Positions 172-38,609 of a DNA stretch of 44,709 bases are shown piece after piece. Each line of letters opens with the position of its first letter. Position 1 is the stretch's first letter. This DNA comes from a virus. The stretch is from the UHGV virus genome UHGV-0231863; one strand, 5' to 3'. The notes beneath the pieces were generated by a model. That model did no database searches. It saw only the letters and a list, made by a program, of their open reading frames with translations, and had not been told where the DNA came from. The translations under genes were made by a program, and so were the position numbers.

Positions 172-921
172 ATGAACTACGCCAAAATCTATGAACAGTT
201 AATATCGAACGCAAAAATCAATCCGTTTAGTGGATATACCGAAAAACATCACATAGTCCCGAAATGCATGGGTGGTGGAGATACTTTTGACAATATTGTA
301 TCTTTGAGCGCTAGACAGCATTTTATTGCGCATTGGCTTCTCTATAAGATACACGGGACTAAAGAACTAGCTTTCGCCTGGAGGGTTATGTGTATTAACC
401 CTAAAAACAATCAAAGGTCAAAAGTTACCTCACATTCCTTTAAGTTGGCGAAAGAGGCTTGGGCTATAGAGATGTCCATGTTGAATACTGGTGTTAAATT
501 TTCTGATAAACGTATAGAAAATCTCAGACAAGCACATCTAGGGCAAAAGGCGTGGAATAAAGGAATTGCTACCGGGGAAACTGCAAGTAGAAAAGCCAGA
601 ATAGAGCATTACATGGCAAACCCACAACGATGTGTAACATGCGACCAGCCGATCCCCTACCGTTTTAAATCACGAGCGCGTAAATATTGCTGCAAGAAAT
701 GCCAGTTCGCGGACCCAAATAGAATCGTTGGCAAGGTTAATAGAAAACCTAACTCCGGAAGTTTTAAGAAGGGCCATACGTTAAAGGGCGAGACTGTCAA
801 GAAAATTTCAGATAAACTTACTGGAATGAAACGCCCGCGCGGGGTATGCCCACATTGCGGAACCGAAGGGGCGCTATCTCTTCTAAAGAGGTGGCACTTT
901 GATAACTGTAAGAAGGGGTGA
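172..921 (+). CDS. HNH homing endonuclease with NUMOD-like DNA-binding repeats
   Basis: ATG at 172; HNH core EKHHIVPK...N...ARQHFIAH; C-terminal repeated SDKxxxxLxxxK modules and Cys pairs; visibly AT-rich compared with flanking structural genes. Confidence 0.85.
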   Translation: MNYAKIYEQLISNAKINPFSGYTEKHHIVPKCMGGGDTFDNIVSLSARQHFIAHWLLYKIHGTKELAFAWRVMCINPKNNQRSKVTSHSFKLAKEAWAIEMSMLNTGVKFSDKRIENLRQAHLGQKAWNKGIATGETASRKARIEHYMANPQRCVTCDQPIPYRFKSRARKYCCKKCQFADPNRIVGKVNRKPNSGSFKKGHTLKGETVKKISDKLTGMKRPRGVCPHCGTEGALSLLKRWHFDNCKKG

Positions 922-2900: not shown

Positions 2901-3313
2901 TGGGCTACTTTGAGGACTTAACAAAAGCGTTCGATGTTCCGCTGGTAGCCTTCGGAACCGCCAACGGCATCAAGGTCGCGCTTGAAAACATCGACGCGCC
3001 GACGTCAACCGATACGCCATATCTGGCAAGTTACATGTTACTGGCGGATACCGAGCAAGCAGATTTGTTCTTCACGGAACAACGCGCGGGTGTTTATCAG
3101 GTCGACATTAACTACGCATCGGTGAAAGGTAGCGCGCCAATCAATAAAATGGCAGACTTACTTAACACGGCATTCAAAGCAGGTAAGTCATTTTCTCGTA
3201 ACGACATCTGCGCCGAGGTTCAATCGGTTAGCCTGGGGCCGCTGATTGTAGAAAACGGATGGGCCAAACGACCATTGTCAATTAACTTTATTGCATTCAC
3301 CAAGAGGCTGTGA
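2897..3313 (+). CDS. putative tail terminator / tail completion protein
   Basis: 138-aa ORF immediately upstream of the major tail protein candidate. Confidence 0.35.
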   Translation: MMGYFEDLTKAFDVPLVAFGTANGIKVALENIDAPTSTDTPYLASYMLLADTEQADLFFTEQRAGVYQVDINYASVKGSAPINKMADLLNTAFKAGKSFSRNDICAEVQSVSLGPLIVENGWAKRPLSINFIAFTKRL

Positions 3314-4482
3314 ATATGGCTACAACTCCTTTTAAGGGCGCGAATACTGCGCAATTCTATGTGGCAGAAACTACCCCTGGCGTAACACCGACTAACCCGG
3401 TCTGGTCGCCATTGCGTAACACAGGTGGCGTTCCTGCCATTACCCGCGACACGCTGACCTCCAACGAACTGGACGGCAGCCGTGAAACTACGTCAATCCG
3501 CACCGGTAACAAGCAGGTTAGCGGAGAATACGCTATTGAGCTTAGCTCGAAAAGCCAGGACGACTGGCTGGCGGGTGCTTTAGGCTCTACATGGCAATCC
3601 GGTAGTTCTCTGACCGGGCTATCAATTACCGTCACGCCTGCAGGCAAGACCTTTACCCGTGCCGAAGGTAGCTTTATTTCTGACGGCGTTGAAGTGGGCG
3701 ACCTGATTGCGTTTACCGACTTAACCGGTGACAACGCAAAACCGTTTATCGTAACTGCAGTAGAGGCGCTGGTAGTGACCGGGGCGGGTATCCAGCATAC
3801 CCTGACCACAGAGACAGTAACTACCGCCGCTAAGACAGGGGATAAACTGGAAACGGGAAGCCGGTGCAAGACGTTCTCTATTCTCACCTGGTACAAAGGC
3901 CAGTGCGGCGGGACTGACGCGTACACACTAACCAAAGGCGTGGAAGTTTCTGGTTTTACCATCGAACAGGCTGTTAACGCTATGGTAACTGGCAGCTTCC
4001 CGTTCATCGGTCGCAGTCAGGAGATTCTCACCACGCGGCCGTCTGGTTCTGATTTCTCCTCTGTTACGTTTGGTGACGAGCCATTCTCCTCGGTCGATGT
4101 TTCTGTGTTCGACGGTTCTACGCCGTTGCGTTGCGACAGCCTGACCATCACCAACGACAACAGCGCGTCCGCACAGTTCGAACTCGGCAACACTAACGTA
4201 GCGTTTGTGGAGCGTAGCCGAGCAGCTAACACCTTCTCCATCTCCGGTAAGCTGTACGACATGGCGATGATTCAGAAGTTTATCAACGAGCAGCAGGTGG
4301 AGATTAACTCTATTCTGGCTGGGGTAAACGGGGCTATGTCTTTCAGTTTGAAACGTGCAGAACTTACGGCGGTTACACCTGAGATTGGAGGACCTGAGTC
4401 AATCACTCAGTCTATTGAAGGTCAGGCTACTGGCAACCAGTACCAGTCGTCTATTGTTATTCAGCGTATCACATACGCATAA
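3310..4482 (+). CDS. major tail protein (putative)
   Basis: 390-aa Thr/Ser/Gly-rich beta-type protein, last gene of neck block, followed by a strong terminator. Confidence 0.5.
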   Translation: MNMATTPFKGANTAQFYVAETTPGVTPTNPVWSPLRNTGGVPAITRDTLTSNELDGSRETTSIRTGNKQVSGEYAIELSSKSQDDWLAGALGSTWQSGSSLTGLSITVTPAGKTFTRAEGSFISDGVEVGDLIAFTDLTGDNAKPFIVTAVEALVVTGAGIQHTLTTETVTTAAKTGDKLETGSRCKTFSILTWYKGQCGGTDAYTLTKGVEVSGFTIEQAVNAMVTGSFPFIGRSQEILTTRPSGSDFSSVTFGDEPFSSVDVSVFDGSTPLRCDSLTITNDNSASAQFELGNTNVAFVERSRAANTFSISGKLYDMAMIQKFINEQQVEINSILAGVNGAMSFSLKRAELTAVTPEIGGPESITQSIEGQATGNQYQSSIVIQRITYA

Positions 4483-4486
4483 AACT

Positions 4487-4510
4487 AAGGCCCCGTTTGG
4501 GGCCTTTTTC
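4487..4510. terminator. bidirectional intrinsic terminator
   Basis: AAGGCCCC-gttt-GGGGCCTT hairpin flanked by A-run and T-run at a strand switch. Confidence 0.7.
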
Positions 4511-5065
4511 TTACAAACCTAATCTTAAAGCAATGCCTATAGCGTTCGATTTAACGTAACCCGGTATGATGTAGGTGTCATAATCTTTTACACCATCAAT
4601 ATCGTACAGGTAACCGCGGCTGTCCCCTTCAAACGTATGGCCGTCTCTGTGCAAGCGGACGATTCTCACATCATGCCCCGCGGCAACGATAGGGGCTACT
4701 TCGCTGGCGAACCCGCCATCAGACACCACAAAAACTTCGTCGCCGTCGGGCAAGTTTCCGGCAAGATACTTACCGAAATAATCATTACCGAATACCGGTT
4801 TAATGAATTGCTCGGAAATGGCAATCATGAACTGACGCCGAGACAACCCGTTAAGGAAACCCTCTGGCTTTTCTTTCCGCGCCCGGTCGTCGTAGCCGTC
4901 GAGAAACTCGCGGTAAGCATCCTGGCCTAACGCAGCCATAGCAATATTGAACATCGGATTCTTGAAACTGGCGACACCCTTCGCAAAGCCCATTTCTACC
5001 AGCGCCCTAGCAAGTGTGTCTTTCCCGCAGCCCGCAGGACCATTAAGAATAATTACCTTAGCCAT
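4511..5065 (-). CDS. dNMP kinase-like P-loop kinase
   Basis: Walker A GPAGCGKDT at N-terminus; later VSDGGF...HDVRIVRLHRDG block resembles T4 gp1-type deoxynucleoside monophosphate kinases. Confidence 0.55.
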   Translation of the reverse strand: MAKVIILNGPAGCGKDTLARALVEMGFAKGVASFKNPMFNIAMAALGQDAYREFLDGYDDRARKEKPEGFLNGLSRRQFMIAISEQFIKPVFGNDYFGKYLAGNLPDGDEVFVVSDGGFASEVAPIVAAGHDVRIVRLHRDGHTFEGDSRGYLYDIDGVKDYDTYIIPGYVKSNAIGIALRLGL

Positions 5066-5550
5066 TATTTATCACTCCCATGTGGTTTTAAGTGTGTAGA
5101 GTTCCCGTTACAGTCGTATTCAGTAACTGCGTGAGTGGTTATGCCGAGTTCGCGGAAATGCTTTATTACCGCTGGAGAGTCGTCGAATGCACACAAGATT
5201 CTCTCCGGCCCAATAGCACGCAACACCTCTTCTTTAATTACGATGTCTTTTCTGTTGTCGTGTTTGCTGCGCATGATTAACTGATAAAATTCTACGCGGT
5301 GGCGCTGCAACCACATTCTGGTTTCTTTTTCCGCGTCATCACTACGGCCTGTTAAGATAATAACGGCATAGCGACGATTAAGGGCGTTACACAGTTCGAT
5401 GTTATCTTTAATGGGTGCATCGTCTTTGCACGCCATGTTAAATGGTTTCCACGCCCAGGTTTCGCCGTAGTTATCTTTCGGCAGCAGGTGTAAACGATGA
5501 GTACCATCTGCCAATGTCCCGTCTAAATCGAAAATCACAATATCTTTCAT
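5065..5550 (-). CDS. HAD-superfamily phosphatase (nucleotidase / polynucleotide 3'-phosphatase-like)
   Basis: HAD motif I FDLDGTL at residues 7-13; start overlaps stop of the kinase gene. Confidence 0.6.
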   Translation of the reverse strand: MKDIVIFDLDGTLADGTHRLHLLPKDNYGETWAWKPFNMACKDDAPIKDNIELCNALNRRYAVIILTGRSDDAEKETRMWLQRHRVEFYQLIMRSKHDNRKDIVIKEEVLRAIGPERILCAFDDSPAVIKHFRELGITTHAVTEYDCNGNSTHLKPHGSDK

Positions 5551-6677
5551 CCAAGCATCTCCGGTGAAATAGTTAAACGTGCGACCTCGCCATATTCGGC
5601 GCTATAAGTAATTACGTTTGCACTGCGGCCCGACATCCACCCACCGCGGGAGGCATATGCATCTTTAGCCGCGAGAGTGCGGTGTTGCTCAACAATCATG
5701 TTACGGCTTTCTACAATCTTTTGGTGGTGCAGGTGACCCACGTGGGCGTAGCTGTAAACACTCTCGCCGAACGCTTTGCGGAACTTGGCGATCATAACCG
5801 GTTCGATAGCGTCGAATCGTGCTTTATGCCCATGATGGAAGAACAGCGTCGTTTTGCCGTGTTGCACCATCTTGTAAACATCCGGCGACGTATCGACGAA
5901 CACACGCGGCTCATTGTCGTACAGCGTACTAAACATCTCAGCTAACCAAATCATTCCGCTTTCGTCGTGGTTACCTTGCACGATAAGCAAGCGAACATTT
6001 TTATGTTTAACGAGAGCCATATCAATGACACGGCGGACCATACGAATCATGTAGCGTACAAGTTTCTGATAGCGGGTGTCAGCGTCAAGAACATGACCAC
6101 TGGCAGGTGTAACGGCGTCCAGACTATCGAAATGCGCAAGGTCGCCCAGCAGATTAATAACTCCTGTTCCGGCATCCGGTGCTTTCTGGAACGCTGCGTC
6201 GAACCAGCAGGAGAACAGGTCTTCCGCAATCTTCATGTCCCAGTCGTCGCCGCTCTCGTCAGCCCAGGCCAGCATACCGAGATGGAAATCAGACACAGTG
6301 TAAAGGTTGAGTAGCTTGTCGTCTCGTTTGGCGCGAACGGCTTTAACAGGTGCAACTGGTGTAATCTCCGACTTCATGCCTTCGATTACGGCTTTCATCA
6401 ATTCAACCTGACGTTCGGCATCGGTGTCGGTCTTAACCCATTGCAACTTGGTGTTGCCAAACTCATCCACCAGTGATGACGTTCCTTTAATCTTGTAGCC
6501 GTCCGGTACAAGGTAACTAACGTCACGCCCGTGGCCTACACCTTTCTTAGCCAGCTTCGCTTTACGGATACGAATAACGCGGTCGGAGATGCCGTATTTA
6601 CGGGCGATGTCGATATTCTTCATACCGGCGTTCAATTCTTCCTGTAACTGTTCGTCGGTTATTTTCTTCCTGGCCAT
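5547..6677 (-). CDS. calcineurin-like metallophosphoesterase with N-terminal HTH
   Basis: N-terminal HTH (IARKYGISDRVIRIRK) then phosphoesterase motifs DFHLG, GDLAHFD, GNHD, HHGH, GHLHH. Confidence 0.65.
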   Translation of the reverse strand: MARKKITDEQLQEELNAGMKNIDIARKYGISDRVIRIRKAKLAKKGVGHGRDVSYLVPDGYKIKGTSSLVDEFGNTKLQWVKTDTDAERQVELMKAVIEGMKSEITPVAPVKAVRAKRDDKLLNLYTVSDFHLGMLAWADESGDDWDMKIAEDLFSCWFDAAFQKAPDAGTGVINLLGDLAHFDSLDAVTPASGHVLDADTRYQKLVRYMIRMVRRVIDMALVKHKNVRLLIVQGNHDESGMIWLAEMFSTLYDNEPRVFVDTSPDVYKMVQHGKTTLFFHHGHKARFDAIEPVMIAKFRKAFGESVYSYAHVGHLHHQKIVESRNMIVEQHRTLAAKDAYASRGGWMSGRSANVITYSAEYGEVARLTISPEMLG

Positions 6678-6714
6678 GCTTATTCCTCGTGTTTAGGATT
6701 TGTCCTATACTAGC

Positions 6715-6921
6715 TCACTTCTCTTTGACATTCGAGTTGCACGCCCAGATTAAGATAAATACCCACGGCAGCAGAACCCAACCAAGAAACAGATTAGCCA
6801 TGAATATCGCTAACTTCGCTTTATGGTTACGGAAGTACGCAACCAGGAAAGGCGCGAAATAAGCGAGCAGTGCAAACAGAATTAAGGAAACTGGTAAACT
6901 GGACATTTTAAACCCCTTCAT
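6715..6921 (-). CDS. superinfection-immunity-like small membrane protein (Imm family)
   Basis: 68 aa, two predicted TM helices, NLFLGWVLLPWVFILIWA motif; own promoter upstream. Confidence 0.5.
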   Translation of the reverse strand: MKGFKMSSLPVSLILFALLAYFAPFLVAYFRNHKAKLAIFMANLFLGWVLLPWVFILIWACNSNVKEK

Positions 6922-6936
6922 TGTTGGTGTAAGTGA

Positions 6937-6965
6937 ATAGTACCCTATTATATTGGGGTGTGCAA
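6937..6965 (-). promoter_or_regulatory. promoter TTGCAC-17-TACTAT with AATAG-N4-CTATT operator (6936-6949)
   Basis: Minus strand CTTGCACACcccaatataatagggTACTATTCAC upstream of Imm-like gene; near-identical to cassettes at 28984 and 30284. Confidence 0.55.
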
Positions 6966-7073
6966 GTAATGTGATAGAATAAGTTTGCGCCTAGTGTCGC
7001 ACACGAAAAGCGGGTGGTTCCCGTCTGGCGCATTTATCGTTAACCTGTAACCTCTTAACCAAAGGATTAAAGA

Positions 7074-7490
7074 ATGAAACTTTCTGATTTTTATTTCGAA
7101 GAGAAAGCACTGGTAGGCAAGAAGATGCCCATTCTGCTGCCAAACGGCGAAGACTCCGGTGAATGGCTTAACGTTGTAAGTCCCGATGCGGATGTCGCCG
7201 TTAAAGCGGGGCGTGCTTTCATTATTGCGTACCGTCGCGGGTTGGCGCGTTTCGAAGAACTGGAAAAAGCCGCCAAAGAATCCGGCGACTATACTGAATA
7301 TAACCTGGCTATTAACGAACTGGCGGAAGACCTCAACCGGCAACTCGCGGCAGAAGTCGCAAACGGCTGGAGCTTTGATGAGCCTTTCTCTAAAGAAGCA
7401 TTTAACAAATTGCTGGACCAGTTCAAGGCATTAGGCACACAGGTAGCAGCGTTCCATAACGCTGAGCGCAAAGCATTACAGGAAAAGTAG
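7074..7490 (+). CDS. tail assembly chaperone (G-like)
   Basis: 138-aa acidic protein immediately upstream of the tape measure gene; downstream ORF is in the -1 frame. Confidence 0.5.
   Translation: MKLSDFYFEEKALVGKKMPILLPNGEDSGEWLNVVSPDADVAVKAGRAFIIAYRRGLARFEELEKAAKESGDYTEYNLAINELAEDLNRQLAAEVANGWSFDEPFSKEAFNKLLDQFKALGTQVAAFHNAERKALQEK
7481..7487 (+). other. candidate -1 programmed ribosomal frameshift site (GGAAAAG)
   Basis: Heptamer ending in AAAAG just before the stop of the upstream chaperone ORF; -1 frame is open from here to 7855. Confidence 0.35.
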
Positions 7491-7522
7491 ACGCGCTGTA
7501 CAGGTTCGCCACCTATGAGTTT

Positions 7523-7855
7523 GTGGATAAGCATAAAATCAGAGAGTTTGATTCTATAGCCGACGGACACGAACAGGCGCTTATCGCGATGGGTGTAATC
7601 GATAAGAAAAAACGTGCAGCGCGACGGGGTGGGCCAGAATGCCCGCCCCTTTTTATATCCACCTTCGAGACGTACTGCGACATTAAGTTTACGCGACACG
7701 TGCGCGAGGACGCTGTAGTATTGTTCGCAAGAGAATCCGTTACGTGGCAAGACCTGAAAGCCTATCTCGATGTTACGCAAAAACAGCTTAGCCTGTTCGA
7801 GATAGACATTATCATGGGCTTAGAAGCAATCTTTGAAGGTAGAAATCATGGCTGA
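7523..7855 (+). CDS. tail assembly chaperone extension (GT-like, -1 frame)
   Basis: ORF in the -1 frame relative to 7074..7490, open from ~7466; ends overlapping the tape measure start. Confidence 0.4.
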   Translation: MDKHKIREFDSIADGHEQALIAMGVIDKKKRAARRGGPECPPLFISTFETYCDIKFTRHVREDAVVLFARESVTWQDLKAYLDVTQKQLSLFEIDIIMGLEAIFEGRNHG

Positions 7856-10121
7856 TACCGCTAGCTTGATCGTACGAGTATCATCGACCGGCGTCGATAA
7901 AACCACATCACAACTGAACGGGCTTACCAAAGCCGCGGGGGCCGCCGCCGCTGCCGTTGTCAGTCTGGAAACTGCCAAACAGGTGTTCAGTGCGCTGGTG
8001 GACTCCCAGCGCAACTTCGATAAGCTGAACTCCGGCCTCATCACAATGACCGGGAGCGCCGAGAACGCTGCTAAGGCATTCAGCGTCCTGCAACAGTTCG
8101 CAAAAGAAACTCCGTATGGCCTCAATCAGGCGGTAGAGGGGTTTACCAAGCTCGTGGCGCTAGGTCTTAACCCCAGCAAAGAGGCGTTAATATCCTACGG
8201 CAACACCGCCGCAGCTATGGGCAAAGACCTTAACCAAATGATTGAGGCAGTTGCCGACGCCAGTACATTTGAATTTGAGCGCTTAAAAGAGTTCGGTATC
8301 AAGTCTTCCCAACAGGCGGATACAGTTTCGTTTACGTTCCGTGGCGTAACGACCACGGTTAAAAAGAACTCCGAAGAGATTCAGAAATACCTGCTAAATA
8401 TCGGTAACACTGATTTCGCCGGAGCGATGGAGACGCGCTCGAAGACCTTAGATGGTCAGTTATCTAGCCTGGCGGACTCCTTCGATGGTCTTGTTCTTGC
8501 GGTAGCGCAATCCGGTTTTGGCGACGCGGTAGGCGAACAAGCGGCAACAGCGGAAGATGCTATCACCGCACTCACCGACGCCATCGCGTCCAATGAGATC
8601 TCCGCCACGCTCCAGGATTGGGTGACACTGTTCAATGAGTCGTTCAAGTTTATTTCTGATGCCCTGAATGACCTGGCATTCGATACCGAGGACAAATCCG
8701 TTGATATGTCCGACTCGCTGGGGGATATACCGGATGCCATCCGTGAGTGGTTGCCGGATATCCAGCAGACATTCCACGAGGTTATTGCGTGGTTCCAGCG
8801 CATTGACGACTACGCGGTAGCGTTAGGCCAGACCCTTGCTGATGTGTTTGACCCGAGCAAAACGTCGGCGCTCACATTTAAAAAACTGACTGCAGAGGCT
8901 GATGCCGCATACGACGCCAGTATAAAACGTGCAGAGGCCGAATCCCAAGCCATTACCGACAGGTCTAAGCAGCGTAAGAAAGAAATTGAGGAACAGCGCA
9001 AGCAGTACGACGAGCGTAAGAAGCAAGAAATTGACTTAGCCAGCCTTGTTAATAAAAAGGGCGGAACTGGTGGGGTGGGGACAACCGACGATAAAGCAGC
9101 AAAAGCCGCCGCCAAGAAAGCAGAGCAATTGCGGAATCAGGCGCAAGATTACCTCGACACTTTGGCCCGTCAGAACAACGACGAGTTAAAGGCTATCGAC
9201 GCGCAGGAACAGCAGAAACTGGCTAAGGCAAAAGAGTTCTACAGCCAGGGCGCGTTGTCCCTGAAAGAATATGAACAAGCTAAAACAGCTATCGTCCTCG
9301 AAGCCGGGCAAAAACGACAAGATGAACTGGATAAACGCCAGAAAGAAGCCCAGGAAAAGCAGCAGAAAGGTGACGACTTCATGGCTCAGATTATGGGTCA
9401 GAACGCTACTGAGCTTGAGCTTCTCGACATCCAGGAACAGCAGAAACTGGCGGTAGCGGATAAGTACCGCGAGCAGGGTTTGATTAGCGAGAAGCAGTAT
9501 CAGGCCGCTCTTAACGCCATCAACGAGCAATACGCAACCAAACGTGCCGATGCAACGGCAACGGCCTTTGGTAACATGGCCTCAAACATCGGGTCTGCGT
9601 TGGGTGAGGCTTCTGGCGCGTACAAGGCATTCGCTATCGTACAGGCCACTATCGCCACGTACACCGCAGCTATTGAGGCGTACAAGTCAACGGCAGCTAT
9701 CCCTGTAGTTGGCCCGTTCCTGGCCCCTGTAGCCGCTGCCGCTGCCGTTGGTGCAGGTATGGCGCAGGTTTCCGCTATCCGGTCCGCGCGTGAACAGGGC
9801 GGACAGTTATCCGCAGGGCAGGCTTCCACCATCGCAGAACGCGGTAAACCAGAAGTTATTATGCCGGCTGGCGCATCTCGTGTTCGCACAGCACAGCAGA
9901 TGAAAGAAATTATGGGGCAAAACGGGTCTTCTTCCGGCCCGTCTAATGTTACTATCGTAAACAACACGAGTTCTCAAATCGGCAACGTATCCACTGAGCA
10001 AGATGATGAAGGCCGTTTGCGAATCATCATCGAGGAGCATGTGGCTGCCTCTTTGCAGAACAGCAACAGCAAGATTAGCAAGGCCCGCAAAGCCACAAGA
10101 AATGCGCCGGGGTTTAAATAA
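7848..10121 (+). CDS. tail tape measure protein
   Basis: ~758 aa from ATG 7848; long coiled-coil Ala/Gln/Lys/Glu-rich centre; follows chaperone pair. Confidence 0.85.
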   Translation: MADTASLIVRVSSTGVDKTTSQLNGLTKAAGAAAAAVVSLETAKQVFSALVDSQRNFDKLNSGLITMTGSAENAAKAFSVLQQFAKETPYGLNQAVEGFTKLVALGLNPSKEALISYGNTAAAMGKDLNQMIEAVADASTFEFERLKEFGIKSSQQADTVSFTFRGVTTTVKKNSEEIQKYLLNIGNTDFAGAMETRSKTLDGQLSSLADSFDGLVLAVAQSGFGDAVGEQAATAEDAITALTDAIASNEISATLQDWVTLFNESFKFISDALNDLAFDTEDKSVDMSDSLGDIPDAIREWLPDIQQTFHEVIAWFQRIDDYAVALGQTLADVFDPSKTSALTFKKLTAEADAAYDASIKRAEAESQAITDRSKQRKKEIEEQRKQYDERKKQEIDLASLVNKKGGTGGVGTTDDKAAKAAAKKAEQLRNQAQDYLDTLARQNNDELKAIDAQEQQKLAKAKEFYSQGALSLKEYEQAKTAIVLEAGQKRQDELDKRQKEAQEKQQKGDDFMAQIMGQNATELELLDIQEQQKLAVADKYREQGLISEKQYQAALNAINEQYATKRADATATAFGNMASNIGSALGEASGAYKAFAIVQATIATYTAAIEAYKSTAAIPVVGPFLAPVAAAAAVGAGMAQVSAIRSAREQGGQLSAGQASTIAERGKPEVIMPAGASRVRTAQQMKEIMGQNGSSSGPSNVTIVNNTSSQIGNVSTEQDDEGRLRIIIEEHVAASLQNSNSKISKARKATRNAPGFK

Positions 10122-37955: not shown

Positions 37956-38609
37956 TTAACGTATATTAGCCGCACATTTACGCACAACCCGAGGTATCGC
38001 CTCTTTCAGTTCACCCCATGTATTAACGGCCTCCATGTCAAGAAGTGTCACCAGAGCTTTCTGGATGTCACTTCGCAACTGATTGGTCTTCGCATCCTGA
38101 GAGTCCCATGTATCGAAACCCGTTACGTCGCGGATATCTACGGATTCCTTTACCGCTTTAGCCACCTGTATGAAGTGTCCACTGTGGCCAATTCTTCCCT
38201 CCGTGCGCTCAATCATTCGACTAACGGCAGCGTTAAGCTCGACAAAGCTCACCGCGCCAATGTTTCGTAGTTCTACCTGCCGTTGTGTGATAAAGCGGTC
38301 GATAACGAGGAAATGGAAATAGGCGCTGTATTGCTCAGCAATATATACTGCCAGATGGAGACATGCAAAGGTGCGACCGTTTCGGCCTTTCGTCGCCCTT
38401 ATGGCATTCTCGATTCCGAGTTGTTTTTCGCATTCCTCCTTGAAAATCTTGAAGCCATCCGTTGACATGACCTGGCGAAGCTCTCTTGTCCCCATGCCGT
38501 TGTCTAAACGCCAACGGTTCATCTGGTCAACCAGCTCGTTTACGTTAATAAAGTTTTCACGGTCAAAAGTGATTTCTCCATAAGGGAACTCTAATGTTTG
38601 CAGTTTCAT
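37956..38609 (-). CDS. KilA-N domain protein (antirepressor-like regulator)
   Basis: GRNGRTFACLHLAVYIAEQYSAYFHFLV resembles the KilA-N/APSES core; lone minus-strand gene inside the head module with own promoter and AGGAG SD. Confidence 0.5.
   Translation of the reverse strand: MKLQTLEFPYGEITFDRENFINVNELVDQMNRWRLDNGMGTRELRQVMSTDGFKIFKEECEKQLGIENAIRATKGRNGRTFACLHLAVYIAEQYSAYFHFLVIDRFITQRQVELRNIGAVSFVELNAAVSRMIERTEGRIGHSGHFIQVAKAVKESVDIRDVTGFDTWDSQDAKTNQLRSDIQKALVTLLDMEAVNTWGELKEAIPRVVRKCAANIR

What the first reader, a model, noticed from the sequence alone, without database searches (positions are those of the whole stretch)
4483..6980. Opposite-strand nucleotide-metabolism and immunity island inserted within the structural gene cluster
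Between the major tail protein candidate and the tail chaperones, four minus-strand genes (dNMP-kinase-like, HAD phosphatase, HTH-metallophosphoesterase, Imm-like membrane protein) form a self-contained unit with its own promoter (6937-6965) and a bidirectional terminator (4487-4510). Interruption of a collinear morphogenesis operon by an antiparallel metabolic/immunity cassette is typical of a moron or accessory insertion.
Basis: inference. Interest (0 to 1): 0.5.

Follow-up and report, generated by a model that had tools for sequence, protein, structure and literature searches.

The report
Antiparallel accessory gene slot in tail operon
Four backward-facing genes (a membrane immunity-like protein, a nuclease-like enzyme, a phosphatase and a nucleotide kinase) sit between the tail-tube and tail-chaperone genes of an already sequenced kind of E. 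coli phage, in a place where related phages carry anything from no genes to different sets of genes, so it is a real but ordinary accessory-gene hot spot.

Summary
Four minus-strand ORFs (4511-6921) lie between the tail tube gene and the tail assembly chaperone. They are bounded by a conserved bidirectional hairpin (4487-4506) and a sigma-70-like promoter (-10 at 6952-6947). The window is a Kagunavirus genome, 99.6% identical here to phage UTI89UKE1, where the genes are already annotated.

The "moron/accessory insertion" reading is partly supported. Of 69 relatives sampled independently of the block, 3 have tube and chaperone directly adjacent and 12 hold one small envelope-protein gene. 47 hold the metallophosphoesterase (MPE). 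Only 16 carry the phosphatase + kinase pair; all 16 are Kagunavirus, half of that genus. In Kagunavirus and Jerseyvirus the MPE is fixed in the slot. Composition is not foreign, so this is an old, layered slot and not a recent insertion.

Function is inferred, not shown:
- Imm-like protein: exclusion of superinfecting phages.
- MPE with an N-terminal helix-turn-helix domain: Mre11/SbcD-like fold and intact metal-binding motifs, probably a DNA nuclease.
- HAD phosphatase: polynucleotide kinase-phosphatase (PNKP) type.
- Kinase: closest solved structure is T4 dNMP kinase. Together the three suggest DNA breakdown and nucleotide salvage, analogous to T5 dmp-A1.

Side finding: a covariation-supported structured RNA (6983-7034, Rfam int-alpA-like) leads the chaperone operon.

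The parts
3310..4482 (+). Tail tube protein gene; left flank, last gene of the head-neck-tube transcription unit
   Evidence: Pfam Phage_tube_2 2.1e-40; PHROG 290
4487..4506 (.). Bidirectional intrinsic-terminator-like hairpin AAGGCCCC-GTTT-GGGGCCTT, shared by the convergent units
   Evidence: Scored on both strands. The stem is conserved while the loop varies (GAAA, TTTC, GGAA, GTTT) in 35 of 37 unique relatives, independent of the neighbouring cargo.
4511..5065 (-). dNMP-kinase-like P-loop kinase (184 aa); optional cargo
   Evidence: PHROG 139 4.5e-46. AlphaFold model pLDDT 94.6. Best solved-structure match is 1DEK, T4 dNMP kinase, E 1.6e-5, TMq 0.66; T4 Pnkp is not in the top 50. Present in 16 of 69 relatives.
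5065..5550 (-). Stand-alone HAD phosphatase of the polynucleotide kinase-phosphatase type (161 aa); optional cargo, always found together with the kinase
   Evidence: Pfam HAD_PNKP 6.7e-20. Best solved relatives are the phosphatase domains of Pnkp1 (1.7e-6) and T4 Pnkp. DLDGT, TGR, K and DD motifs can be read in the sequence.
5547..6677 (-). Metallophosphoesterase with an N-terminal helix-turn-helix (376 aa); conserved anchor of the block
6715..6921 (-). Imm-like protein with two transmembrane segments (68 aa); first gene of the unit
   Evidence: Pfam Imm_superinfect 9.3e-13, 48.3 bits against a cut-off of 27.9; PHROG 1039. A signal-peptide protein (PHROG 14165) replaces it in 15 of 46 unique loci.
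6947..6975 (-). Sigma-70-like promoter of the antiparallel unit (-35 ATCACA, 17-nt spacer, -10 TATAAT)
   Evidence: Best-scoring site in the scan, 10 of 12. The -10 is conserved in Kagunavirus loci. Not verified experimentally.
6953..6980 (+). Inferred divergent promoter of the chaperone/tape-measure operon (TTGGGG, 16-nt spacer, extended -10 TGaTAGAAT); it overlaps the minus-strand promoter
   Evidence: Read from the sequence. TGnTAGAAT is conserved in Kagunavirus loci. The scan tool did not call it, because the -35 matches only 3 of 6. This is an inference.
6983..7034 (+). Structured leader RNA of the chaperone operon (three helices); resembles Rfam int-alpA
   Evidence: RF02996 31.8 bits (gathering score 35.8), E 3.7e-5 to 6.4e-4 depending on the stretch searched. 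On 20 sequences, 12 of 14 pairs change on both sides and 89.6% of cells pair, against 34-52% in slid controls. One copy per genome.
7074..7490 (+). Tail assembly chaperone gene; right flank
   Evidence: Pfam Phage_TAC_4 1e-5; PHROG 15027 7e-70

Best explanation
The region is an old, layered accessory-gene slot at the boundary between two late structural transcription units of a Kagunavirus.

Architecture. Rightward head-to-tail-tube transcription ends at a bidirectional hairpin (4487-4506). The chaperone/tape-measure operon restarts at its own promoter and structured leader (about 6953-7073). Between them, a leftward unit is transcribed from a sigma-70-like promoter (-10 at 6952-6947) and ends at the same hairpin.

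Gene content, in order of transcription:
1. A small inner-membrane Imm-family protein, inferred to exclude superinfecting phages.
2. A helix-turn-helix plus Mre11/SbcD-like metallophosphoesterase. It is fixed here in Kagunavirus and Jerseyvirus and is inferred to be a Mn-dependent DNA nuclease.
3. A PNKP-type HAD phosphatase, translationally coupled to the MPE.
4. A T4-gp1-like dNMP kinase, coupled in turn to the phosphatase.

Genes 3 and 4 are exchangeable cargo. Half of Kagunavirus genomes carry them. The others carry a 76-aa protein, with or without HNH endonucleases, a KilAC-type DNA-binding protein or small ORFs, and never both sets.

Most likely biochemistry, by inference only. The nuclease breaks down DNA, either host DNA or replication intermediates. 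The phosphatase removes 3'-phosphates from the products. The kinase turns dNMPs into dNDPs for phage DNA synthesis. This is functionally analogous to the T5 dmp-A1 pre-early operon.

Shown here: the anatomy, the conservation pattern and the family or fold assignments. Inferred: the promoter's use, all enzyme substrates, and exclusion by the Imm-like protein.
For: - ORFs and their overlaps.
- Family assignments.
- Catalytic motifs invariant in the MPE family.
- MPE fold nearest Mre11, SbcD and DP1.
- Kinase fold nearest T4 dNMP kinase.
- Conserved hairpin.
- Conserved divergent promoter region.
- Slot contents in 46 unique loci, with the layout envelope protein, then MPE, then either HAD + kinase (18) or other cargo; the 76-aa ORF (26 of 48 loci) never accompanies HAD + kinase.
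- Unbiased sample of 69 loci showing a graded series of 0 genes, 1 gene and many genes.
- Same gene order (MPE, HAD, kinase, terminator) in Klebsiella phage KP36.
- No compositional anomaly.
- T5 A1 (a predicted metallophosphatase) is necessary and sufficient for host DNA degradation and is encoded in the same FST pre-early gene cluster, likely the same operon, as the dNMP phosphatase Dmp: bioRxiv 10.64898/2026.04.02.716235.
- A mycobacteriophage MPE-like protein disrupts host DNA: PMC12287305.
Against: - No member of this MPE family has been tested.
- No sequence-level link to T5 A1: hhalign probability 6%.
- A PNKP-type phosphatase suggests polynucleotide ends as much as free nucleotides. 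A phosphatase beside a dNMP kinase would be futile if both acted on 5'-dNMPs.
- In T1 and other T1-like phages the MPE and the kinase are not adjacent, so the three enzymes need not work together.
- The promoter is a consensus match only.
Confidence: 0.55

Rival explanations
1. A nucleic-acid end-healing (repair) module. The HAD 3'-phosphatase and the P-loop kinase would together form a split polynucleotide kinase-phosphatase. With the MPE acting as a 2',3'-cyclic phosphodiesterase or end-trimming nuclease, they would restore ligatable ends on tRNA or DNA cut by host defence nucleases, as T4 Pnkp/Rnl1 or the Clostridium thermocellum Pnkp do.
For: The HAD's only significant solved relatives are Pnkp phosphatase domains (Pnkp1 1.7e-6, T4 Pnkp 1.6e-5 and 1.8e-4), and Pfam assigns it to HAD_PNKP. 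Kinase, phosphatase and MPE are translationally coupled and keep the same order in KP36. From my own knowledge, C. thermocellum Pnkp combines a kinase with an MPE-type phosphatase.
Against: The kinase's best structural match is T4 dNMP kinase. T4 Pnkp does not appear among the top 50 matches. Its P-loop ends in GKD as in T4 gp1, not GKS/T (from my own knowledge). No ligase is annotated in a fully annotated sister genome. No PADLOC or defence-related signal was found.
Confidence: 0.15
2. A recently acquired foreign moron: the whole four-gene block was inserted as one unit into a previously collinear tail operon of this phage lineage.
For: The block has its own promoter-like site and terminator. 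Relatives with an uninterrupted tube-chaperone junction exist (L157, L163, L164). The HAD + kinase pair is present in only half of Kagunavirus genomes.
Against: The MPE sits at this position in all Kagunavirus- and Jerseyvirus-like loci. The boundaries (hairpin, promoter region) are conserved across both genera. The parts assort independently: Imm or the signal-peptide protein, HAD + kinase or the 76-aa ORF, and three chaperone alleles occur in all combinations. GC, GC3 and codon adaptation lie within the genome's range.
Confidence: 0.05
3. The MPE is not a DNA nuclease. It would be a phosphodiesterase or phosphatase for small molecules (cyclic or linear signalling nucleotides, Ap4A, (p)ppGpp), or a DNA-bound regulator. 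The block would then serve host takeover or counter-defence, not salvage.
Against: The top structural matches are Mre11, SbcD and DP1. An invariant His three residues after the GD motif (GDxxH) parallels GDLFH of Mre11 (from my own knowledge). No PADLOC hit. Characterised phage MPE-type proteins act on DNA.
Confidence: 0.12

Closest known systems
Annotated homologous block in Escherichia phage vB_EcoS-UTI89UKE1 (MZ234048) and other Kagunavirus genomes
   Same: 99.6% nucleotide identity over 3300-7900, with the same four minus-strand genes between tail tube and chaperone. Pharokka-annotated relatives name them dNMP kinase, polynucleotide kinase, DNA repair exonuclease and superinfection immunity protein.
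   Different: Nothing substantial. The papers I read mention these genes only in passing. The slot architecture and cargo exchange were not described in them.
Phage morons / accessory-gene hot spots (as defined for lambdoid phages)
   Same: An independent transcription unit with its own promoter-like site and terminator, placed between essential late genes. It shows presence/absence and cargo polymorphism among relatives.
   Different: The phage is virulent. The unit is antiparallel, multi-gene and layered. Its anchor gene is fixed in two genera and the composition is not foreign.
Bacteriophage T5 pre-early dmp-A1-A2 operon
   Same: A metallophosphatase-type protein (A1, which drives host DNA degradation) encoded in the same FST pre-early gene cluster, likely the same operon, as a dNMP phosphatase (Dmp) and a DNA-binding protein (A2). 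Here the DNA-binding domain is fused to the MPE.
   Different: No detectable sequence homology to A1. By its GenBank annotation and the T5 paper, T5 Dmp acts on 5'-dNMPs; it was not compared with the HAD here. From my own knowledge, Dmp is not a HAD enzyme and the T5 dNMP kinase is encoded elsewhere in the genome. Position and timing also differ.
MPE-HAD-kinase triad of Klebsiella phage KP36 and other Webervirus (T1-like phages)
   Same: Same three families in the same order, followed by a terminator. Amino-acid identity is 42% (MPE), 58% (HAD) and 46% (kinase).
   Different: There it lies co-directionally in the early/DNA-metabolism region before the lysis genes, not inside the tail cluster. 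In T1 itself the MPE stands alone.
Mre11/SbcD and PolD-DP1 nucleases (calcineurin-like metallophosphoesterases)
   Different: No Rad50/SbcC-like partner is seen in the sister-genome annotation. The protein has an extra N-terminal helix-turn-helix, a beta-hairpin and a conserved C-terminal segment. No sequence-level PDB hit, even with a profile.
Rfam RF02996 int-alpA RNA motif
   Same: Full-length match to the three-helix architecture with the GAAAA linker. The structure is supported by covariation.
   Different: Scores of 31.8-33.5 bits lie below the gathering score of 35.8. The hairpin-2 loop is shorter. The context is the leader of a tail chaperone operon in virulent phages, not an integrase/alpA locus.

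Membership tests
Moron (independent accessory transcription unit) | Own promoter and own terminator | tested here: inconclusive
   The terminator-like hairpin is present and conserved. The promoter is a 10-of-12 consensus match with a conserved -10, but such matches are not enriched in the region. No transcript data.
Moron (independent accessory transcription unit) | Present in some close relatives and absent in others | tested here: met
   Met for the HAD + kinase pair (16 of 32 Kagunavirus-like loci) and, at greater distance, for the block as a whole (3 of 69 with no block, 12 of 69 with one small gene). Not met for the MPE within Kagunavirus and Jerseyvirus, where it is always present.
Moron (independent accessory transcription unit) | Nucleotide composition differing from the surrounding genome | tested here: not met
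   GC 0.435-0.508 against a gene mean of 0.499 +/- 0.042. Codon adaptation lies at the 46th-84th percentile.
Calcineurin-like metallophosphoesterase, Mre11/SbcD-type nuclease | Five motifs: DxH, GD, GNH(D/E), H, GHxH | tested here: met
   All are invariant in 16 homologues of 38-88% identity and in 61 sequences of alignment A2.
Calcineurin-like metallophosphoesterase, Mre11/SbcD-type nuclease | MPE fold closest to the nuclease clade | tested here: met
Calcineurin-like metallophosphoesterase, Mre11/SbcD-type nuclease | Rad50/SbcC ATPase partner; nuclease activity | not testable with these tools
   No such partner is annotated in the sister genome. Activity needs biochemistry.
T4-type polynucleotide kinase-phosphatase (Pnkp) | HAD 3'-phosphatase domain with DxDxT | tested here: met
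   Pfam HAD_PNKP 72 bits against a cut-off of 27.6. The best solved relatives are Pnkp phosphatase domains. DLDGT is read in the sequence.
T4-type polynucleotide kinase-phosphatase (Pnkp) | Pnk-type 5'-kinase domain, fused or partnered | tested here: not met
   The adjacent kinase matches T4 dNMP kinase 1DEK best. Pnkp (1LTQ) is absent from the top 50. PHROG 139, not a Pnk family.
T4 gp1-type dNMP kinase | P-loop kinase fold nearest gp1; sequence family | tested here: met
   1DEK is the top hit, E 1.6e-5, TMq 0.66, at 19% identity. PHROG 139 4.5e-46. The model has pLDDT 94.6. Substrate specificity cannot be tested here.
T4 Imm superinfection immunity family (PF14373) | Pfam match above the gathering score; small protein with two transmembrane segments | tested here: met
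   48.3 bits against 27.9. Two hydrophobic segments are read in the sequence. Exclusion activity cannot be tested here.
Rfam int-alpA RNA (RF02996) | Score at or above the gathering threshold | tested here: not met
   31.8 bits (window) and 33.5 bits (L046) against 35.8. No hit in gathering mode in 8 sources.
Rfam int-alpA RNA (RF02996) | Three-helix structure supported by covariation | tested here: met
   12 of 14 pairs change on both sides. 89.6% of cells pair against 34-52% in slid controls. 0 of 500 shuffles reach the observed values. The alignment was fitted to the model, but an independent MAFFT alignment gives 95% against 32-57%.

The most novel reading that the evidence does not exclude
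The helix-turn-helix Mre11-like metallophosphoesterase, found in more than 2000 sequenced siphophage genomes, would be the T1-like and Kagunavirus counterpart of T5 A1: a phage nuclease that dismantles host DNA and perhaps shuts off transcription. The exchangeable downstream cargo (HAD phosphatase plus dNMP kinase) would channel its products into phage DNA synthesis. The overlapping divergent promoters and the int-alpA-like leader RNA next to it would form a switch between this unit and tail-gene expression.
Probability: 0.2. Interest if true: 0.55.

Novelty: already known. Interest (0 to 1): 0.27.

Why it matters
It matters only modestly.

- The block is already present and annotated in dozens of deposited Kagunavirus genomes. 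An antiparallel accessory cassette inside a structural cluster is a familiar feature of phage genomes.
- This analysis adds a precise map of an insertion hot spot with fixed boundaries. That map helps anyone engineering these small therapeutic phages, because payloads could replace the optional HAD + kinase cargo.
- It flags the helix-turn-helix MPE as a very widespread, uncharacterised, probably catalytic phage protein worth testing.
- It identifies a covariation-supported structured RNA in front of the tail chaperone operon. That RNA is older than the block and has no known function.

Tried and rejected
- Sequence and profile searches of the MPE against PDB sequences found nothing. Only fold comparison was informative.
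- Profile comparison of the MPE family with T5 A1 aligned only the NHD...WL stretch, probability 6%. Homology to A1 is therefore not claimed.
- I tested whether the 76-aa ORF that replaces HAD + kinase is a domain fused to longer kinase homologues. BLAST found no significant match, so the idea was dropped. Its PHROG hits cover only the C-terminal part of roughly 180-250-position family profiles of unknown function.
- A PADLOC scan of all four proteins gave no hits.
- NCBIfam gave nothing above its cut-offs.
- Rfam in gathering mode on the window and 7 loci gave no hits.
- An exact-pattern scan of one genome per bacterial species for the leader RNA core gave only 3 hits in unrelated taxa, taken as chance. 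The phage form of the motif was not found in that collection.
- The first synteny sample was retrieved with the MPE itself. It wrongly suggested that the block is universal. I corrected this by re-sampling with the tail-terminator protein.
- The first MPE homologue search returned only near-identical sequences. A second search with a distant homologue was needed to build a usable alignment.
Full report
**What the window is**

The 4.6 kb around the finding is 99.6% identical to Escherichia phage vB_EcoS-UTI89UKE1. It matches 310 phage records, all from Kagunavirus, Jerseyvirus or their relatives in the subfamily Guernseyvirinae. The window is about the size of a complete Kagunavirus genome (44.7 kb; complete relatives are 41-45 kb). 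In the deposited relatives the same four minus-strand genes are already annotated. Their names there range from 'hypothetical' to dNMP kinase, polynucleotide kinase, DNA repair exonuclease and superinfection immunity protein.

One search lists four minus-strand ORFs between the tail tube gene (3310-4482) and the tail assembly chaperone (7074-7490):
- 4511-5065, 184 aa
- 5065-5550, 161 aa
- 5547-6677, 376 aa
- 6715-6921, 68 aa

The three enzyme genes overlap start to stop, by 4 nt and 1 nt.

- PHROG 139 'dNMP kinase', 4.5e-46
- Pfam HAD_PNKP, 6.7e-20
- PHROG 704 'DNA repair exonuclease', 8.8e-167, with weak Metallophos hits
- Pfam Imm_superinfect, 9.3e-13

The hairpin at 4487-4506 is terminator-like on both strands. 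The best promoter-like site in the region lies on the minus strand, with its -10 TATAAT at 6952-6947. Promoter-like matches as a class are not enriched there, so the promoter rests on position and conservation only.

**Synteny: first sample**

I first fetched 74 IMG/VR loci using the metallophosphoesterase (MPE) itself as the query. I mapped the window's proteins onto them and onto GenBank loci.

In all 48 loci that contain both tail tube and chaperone (46 unique), the MPE lies between them in the opposite orientation. The layout is always the same. A small envelope protein comes first, then the MPE, then variable cargo.
- The envelope protein is the Imm-like transmembrane protein in 30 unique loci. 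It is a ~108-aa signal-peptide protein of PHROG 14165 in 15.
- The cargo is HAD + kinase in 18 of 46 unique loci.
- In most of the others the cargo includes a 76-aa protein (26 of the 48 loci). It comes with or without a 66-aa ORF, HNH endonucleases on either strand, a KilAC-type DNA-binding protein or a 77-aa membrane protein.
- HAD + kinase and the 76-aa ORF never occur together.
- The parts assort independently of each other and of three divergent chaperone/tape-measure alleles. That is the signature of recombination between conserved flanks.

**Synteny: second sample corrects a bias**

The first sample could only contain genomes that have the MPE. I therefore re-sampled with the tail-terminator protein. 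Of 69 loci with both tube and chaperone:
- 47 have the MPE in the slot.
- 3 have no block at all, with gaps of 94-139 bp (L157, L163, L164).
- 12 have gaps of 354-584 bp. Those I examined hold one small antiparallel envelope-protein gene, either single-pass membrane or signal-peptide type.
- 5 have 1.2-1.6 kb of small ORFs.
- 2 (one lineage) keep a signal-peptide protein plus an 88-aa ORF in the slot. Their MPE has moved to another antiparallel position among the head genes.

HAD + kinase occurs in 16 of the 32 Kagunavirus-like loci and in none of the others.

The collinear tube-chaperone arrangement does exist in relatives. But the block is a graded accretion, not one insertion, and its anchor gene is fixed in two genera.

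The four ORFs are not compositional outliers.

**The boundaries are conserved**

The hairpin AAGGCCCC-loop-GGGGCCTT follows the tail-tube stop in 35 of 37 unique sequences. Its stem is invariant, or a single-base variant, and its loop varies freely, whatever gene lies beside it.

The roughly 130 bp between the first minus-strand gene and the chaperone start are more conserved than the flanking proteins, whose chaperones are only 50% identical. Reading the sequence, three elements sit there:
- the minus-strand -10 at 6947-6952;
- a plus-strand extended -10, TGaTAGAAT at 6972-6980, conserved as TGnTAGAAT;
- the -35 of each promoter, which lies on or next to the -10 of the other.

The two promoters should therefore compete for RNA polymerase. 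This last step is inference.

**What the proteins are: the MPE**

- It has all five metallophosphoesterase motifs, plus a His three residues after the GD motif. All are invariant across homologues of 38-88% identity.
- It carries an N-terminal helix-turn-helix.
- Homologues occur in 2041 phage records. In T1 and Dhillonvirus the gene lies co-directionally near the lysis or packaging genes.
- No solved structure is detectable by sequence. I found no characterised member.

**What the proteins are: kinase, HAD and Imm**

- The kinase model (pLDDT 94.6) matches T4 dNMP kinase 1DEK best. T4 Pnkp is not in the top 50.
- The HAD's only significant solved relatives are the 3'-phosphatase domains of Pnkp1 and T4 Pnkp.
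- Klebsiella phage KP36 has the same order (MPE, HAD, kinase, terminator) in its early region. The three enzymes therefore travel together in more than one lineage, though not in T1 or Bas01.
- PADLOC finds nothing.

**How it most likely works**

The leftward unit first makes a membrane protein of the T4 Imm family, whose inferred role is exclusion of superinfecting phage. It then makes a DNA-binding, Mre11-like, metal-dependent nuclease. In this phage it also makes a 3'-phosphatase and a dNMP kinase.

The most economical reading is DNA breakdown followed by nucleotide salvage. It parallels T5, where the metallophosphatase A1 is necessary and sufficient for host-DNA degradation. A1 lies in the same FST pre-early gene cluster, likely the same operon, as the dNMP phosphatase Dmp and the DNA-binding protein A2. 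A mycobacteriophage MPE-like protein likewise disrupts host DNA. I could not show homology to A1.

The main rival is an end-healing, split-Pnkp repair module. It is favoured by the HAD's affinities. It is disfavoured by the kinase's dNMP-kinase fold and by the absence of a ligase in an annotated sister genome.

All enzyme substrates and the exclusion function are inferred.

**Side finding**

Just outside the finding, at 6983-7034 (+), the chaperone operon's leader is a three-helix RNA.
- It matches Rfam int-alpA over the model's full length, at 31.8 bits against a gathering score of 35.8. A relative scores 33.5 bits.
- A model built from 12 sequences finds exactly one copy per genome in most lineages sampled, including L163 and L164, which have no antiparallel block. 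It gave no match in L157 or the L121-L124 group.
- On 20 sequences, 12 of 14 pairs show changes on both sides. 89.6% of cells pair, against 34-52% in slid controls.
- The loop UGGUU is invariant and the GAAAA linker nearly so.
- The element is therefore probably older than the block. Its function is unknown.

**Verdict**

This is a real and correctly described gene block. It is a layered accessory slot with a fixed anchor gene and exchangeable cargo, in an already sequenced and annotated phage group. It is ordinary for phage genomics, with two leads worth an experiment: the helix-turn-helix MPE and the leader RNA.

Noticed in passing
window 6983-7034 (+): A conserved three-helix RNA in the leader of the tail chaperone/tape-measure operon. 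It resembles Rfam int-alpA (31.8 bits, below the gathering score). Covariation is strong: 12 of 14 pairs change on both sides. There is one copy per genome, and it is also present in relatives L163 and L164, which lack the antiparallel block.
   Followed up: yes
window 6947-6980: Two divergent promoter-like sites overlap. The minus-strand TATAAT/ATCACA and the plus-strand extended -10 TGaTAGAAT/TTGGGG are arranged so that the -35 of each lies on or beside the -10 of the other. The stretch is conserved across Kagunavirus and partly across Jerseyvirus. It could act as a switch.
   Followed up: partly
window 7040-7066 (+): Three TAACC repeats (TTAACC-TG-TAACC-TCT-TAACC) lie directly upstream of the chaperone's Shine-Dalgarno sequence. 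They are conserved in most relatives aligned, and one locus (L037) has extra copies.
   Followed up: no
window 6908-7033 (-): A 41-aa ORF, annotated as a hypothetical protein in UTI89UKE1, overlaps the promoter region and the structured RNA. It is probably not a gene.
   Followed up: no
window 37956-38609 (-): A second single antiparallel gene inside the structural cluster, a 217-aa ORF with a sub-threshold KilA-N Pfam match (21.5 bits vs cut-off 23.8). It lies between a 489-aa and a 645-aa plus-strand gene, in a local GC dip.
   Followed up: partly
window 172-921 (+): A 249-aa ORF with a weak, sub-threshold HNH Pfam match (18.4 bits vs cut-off 21.4) lies upstream of the head-tail connector genes. 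HNH genes also occupy the tube-chaperone slot in about 9 of 46 relatives, so homing endonucleases frequent these junctions.
   Followed up: partly
window 7626-7649 (+): A strong terminator-like hairpin (9-bp stem with 8 G-C pairs, followed by TTTTT) lies inside the frameshift-extension ORF of the tail chaperone, just upstream of the tape-measure gene. It might act as an attenuator.
   Followed up: no
loci L002-L078 (slot between tail tube and MPE): HAD + kinase and a 76-aa ORF (PHROG 2452) are mutually exclusive occupants of the position directly downstream of the MPE. In phage Jersey the 76-aa ORF also overlaps the MPE by 4 nt, as HAD does in the window. The 76-aa ORF matches only the C-terminal part of longer PHROG families.
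   Followed up: partly
L068:7001-8125: The MPE here is only 61% identical to the window's, while the flanking tube (91%), Imm (97%) and chaperone (99%) are near-identical. This is an allelic replacement of the anchor gene. Jerseyvirus likewise has two MPE lineages, 88% and 55% identical to the window's.
   Followed up: partly
L044, L075, L087 (IMG/VR contigs 3300048927_000029 and 3300048920_000036): A related lineage in which the MPE (85% identical) sits antiparallel among the head genes instead. The tube-chaperone slot still holds an antiparallel signal-peptide protein and an 88-aa ORF.
   Followed up: yes
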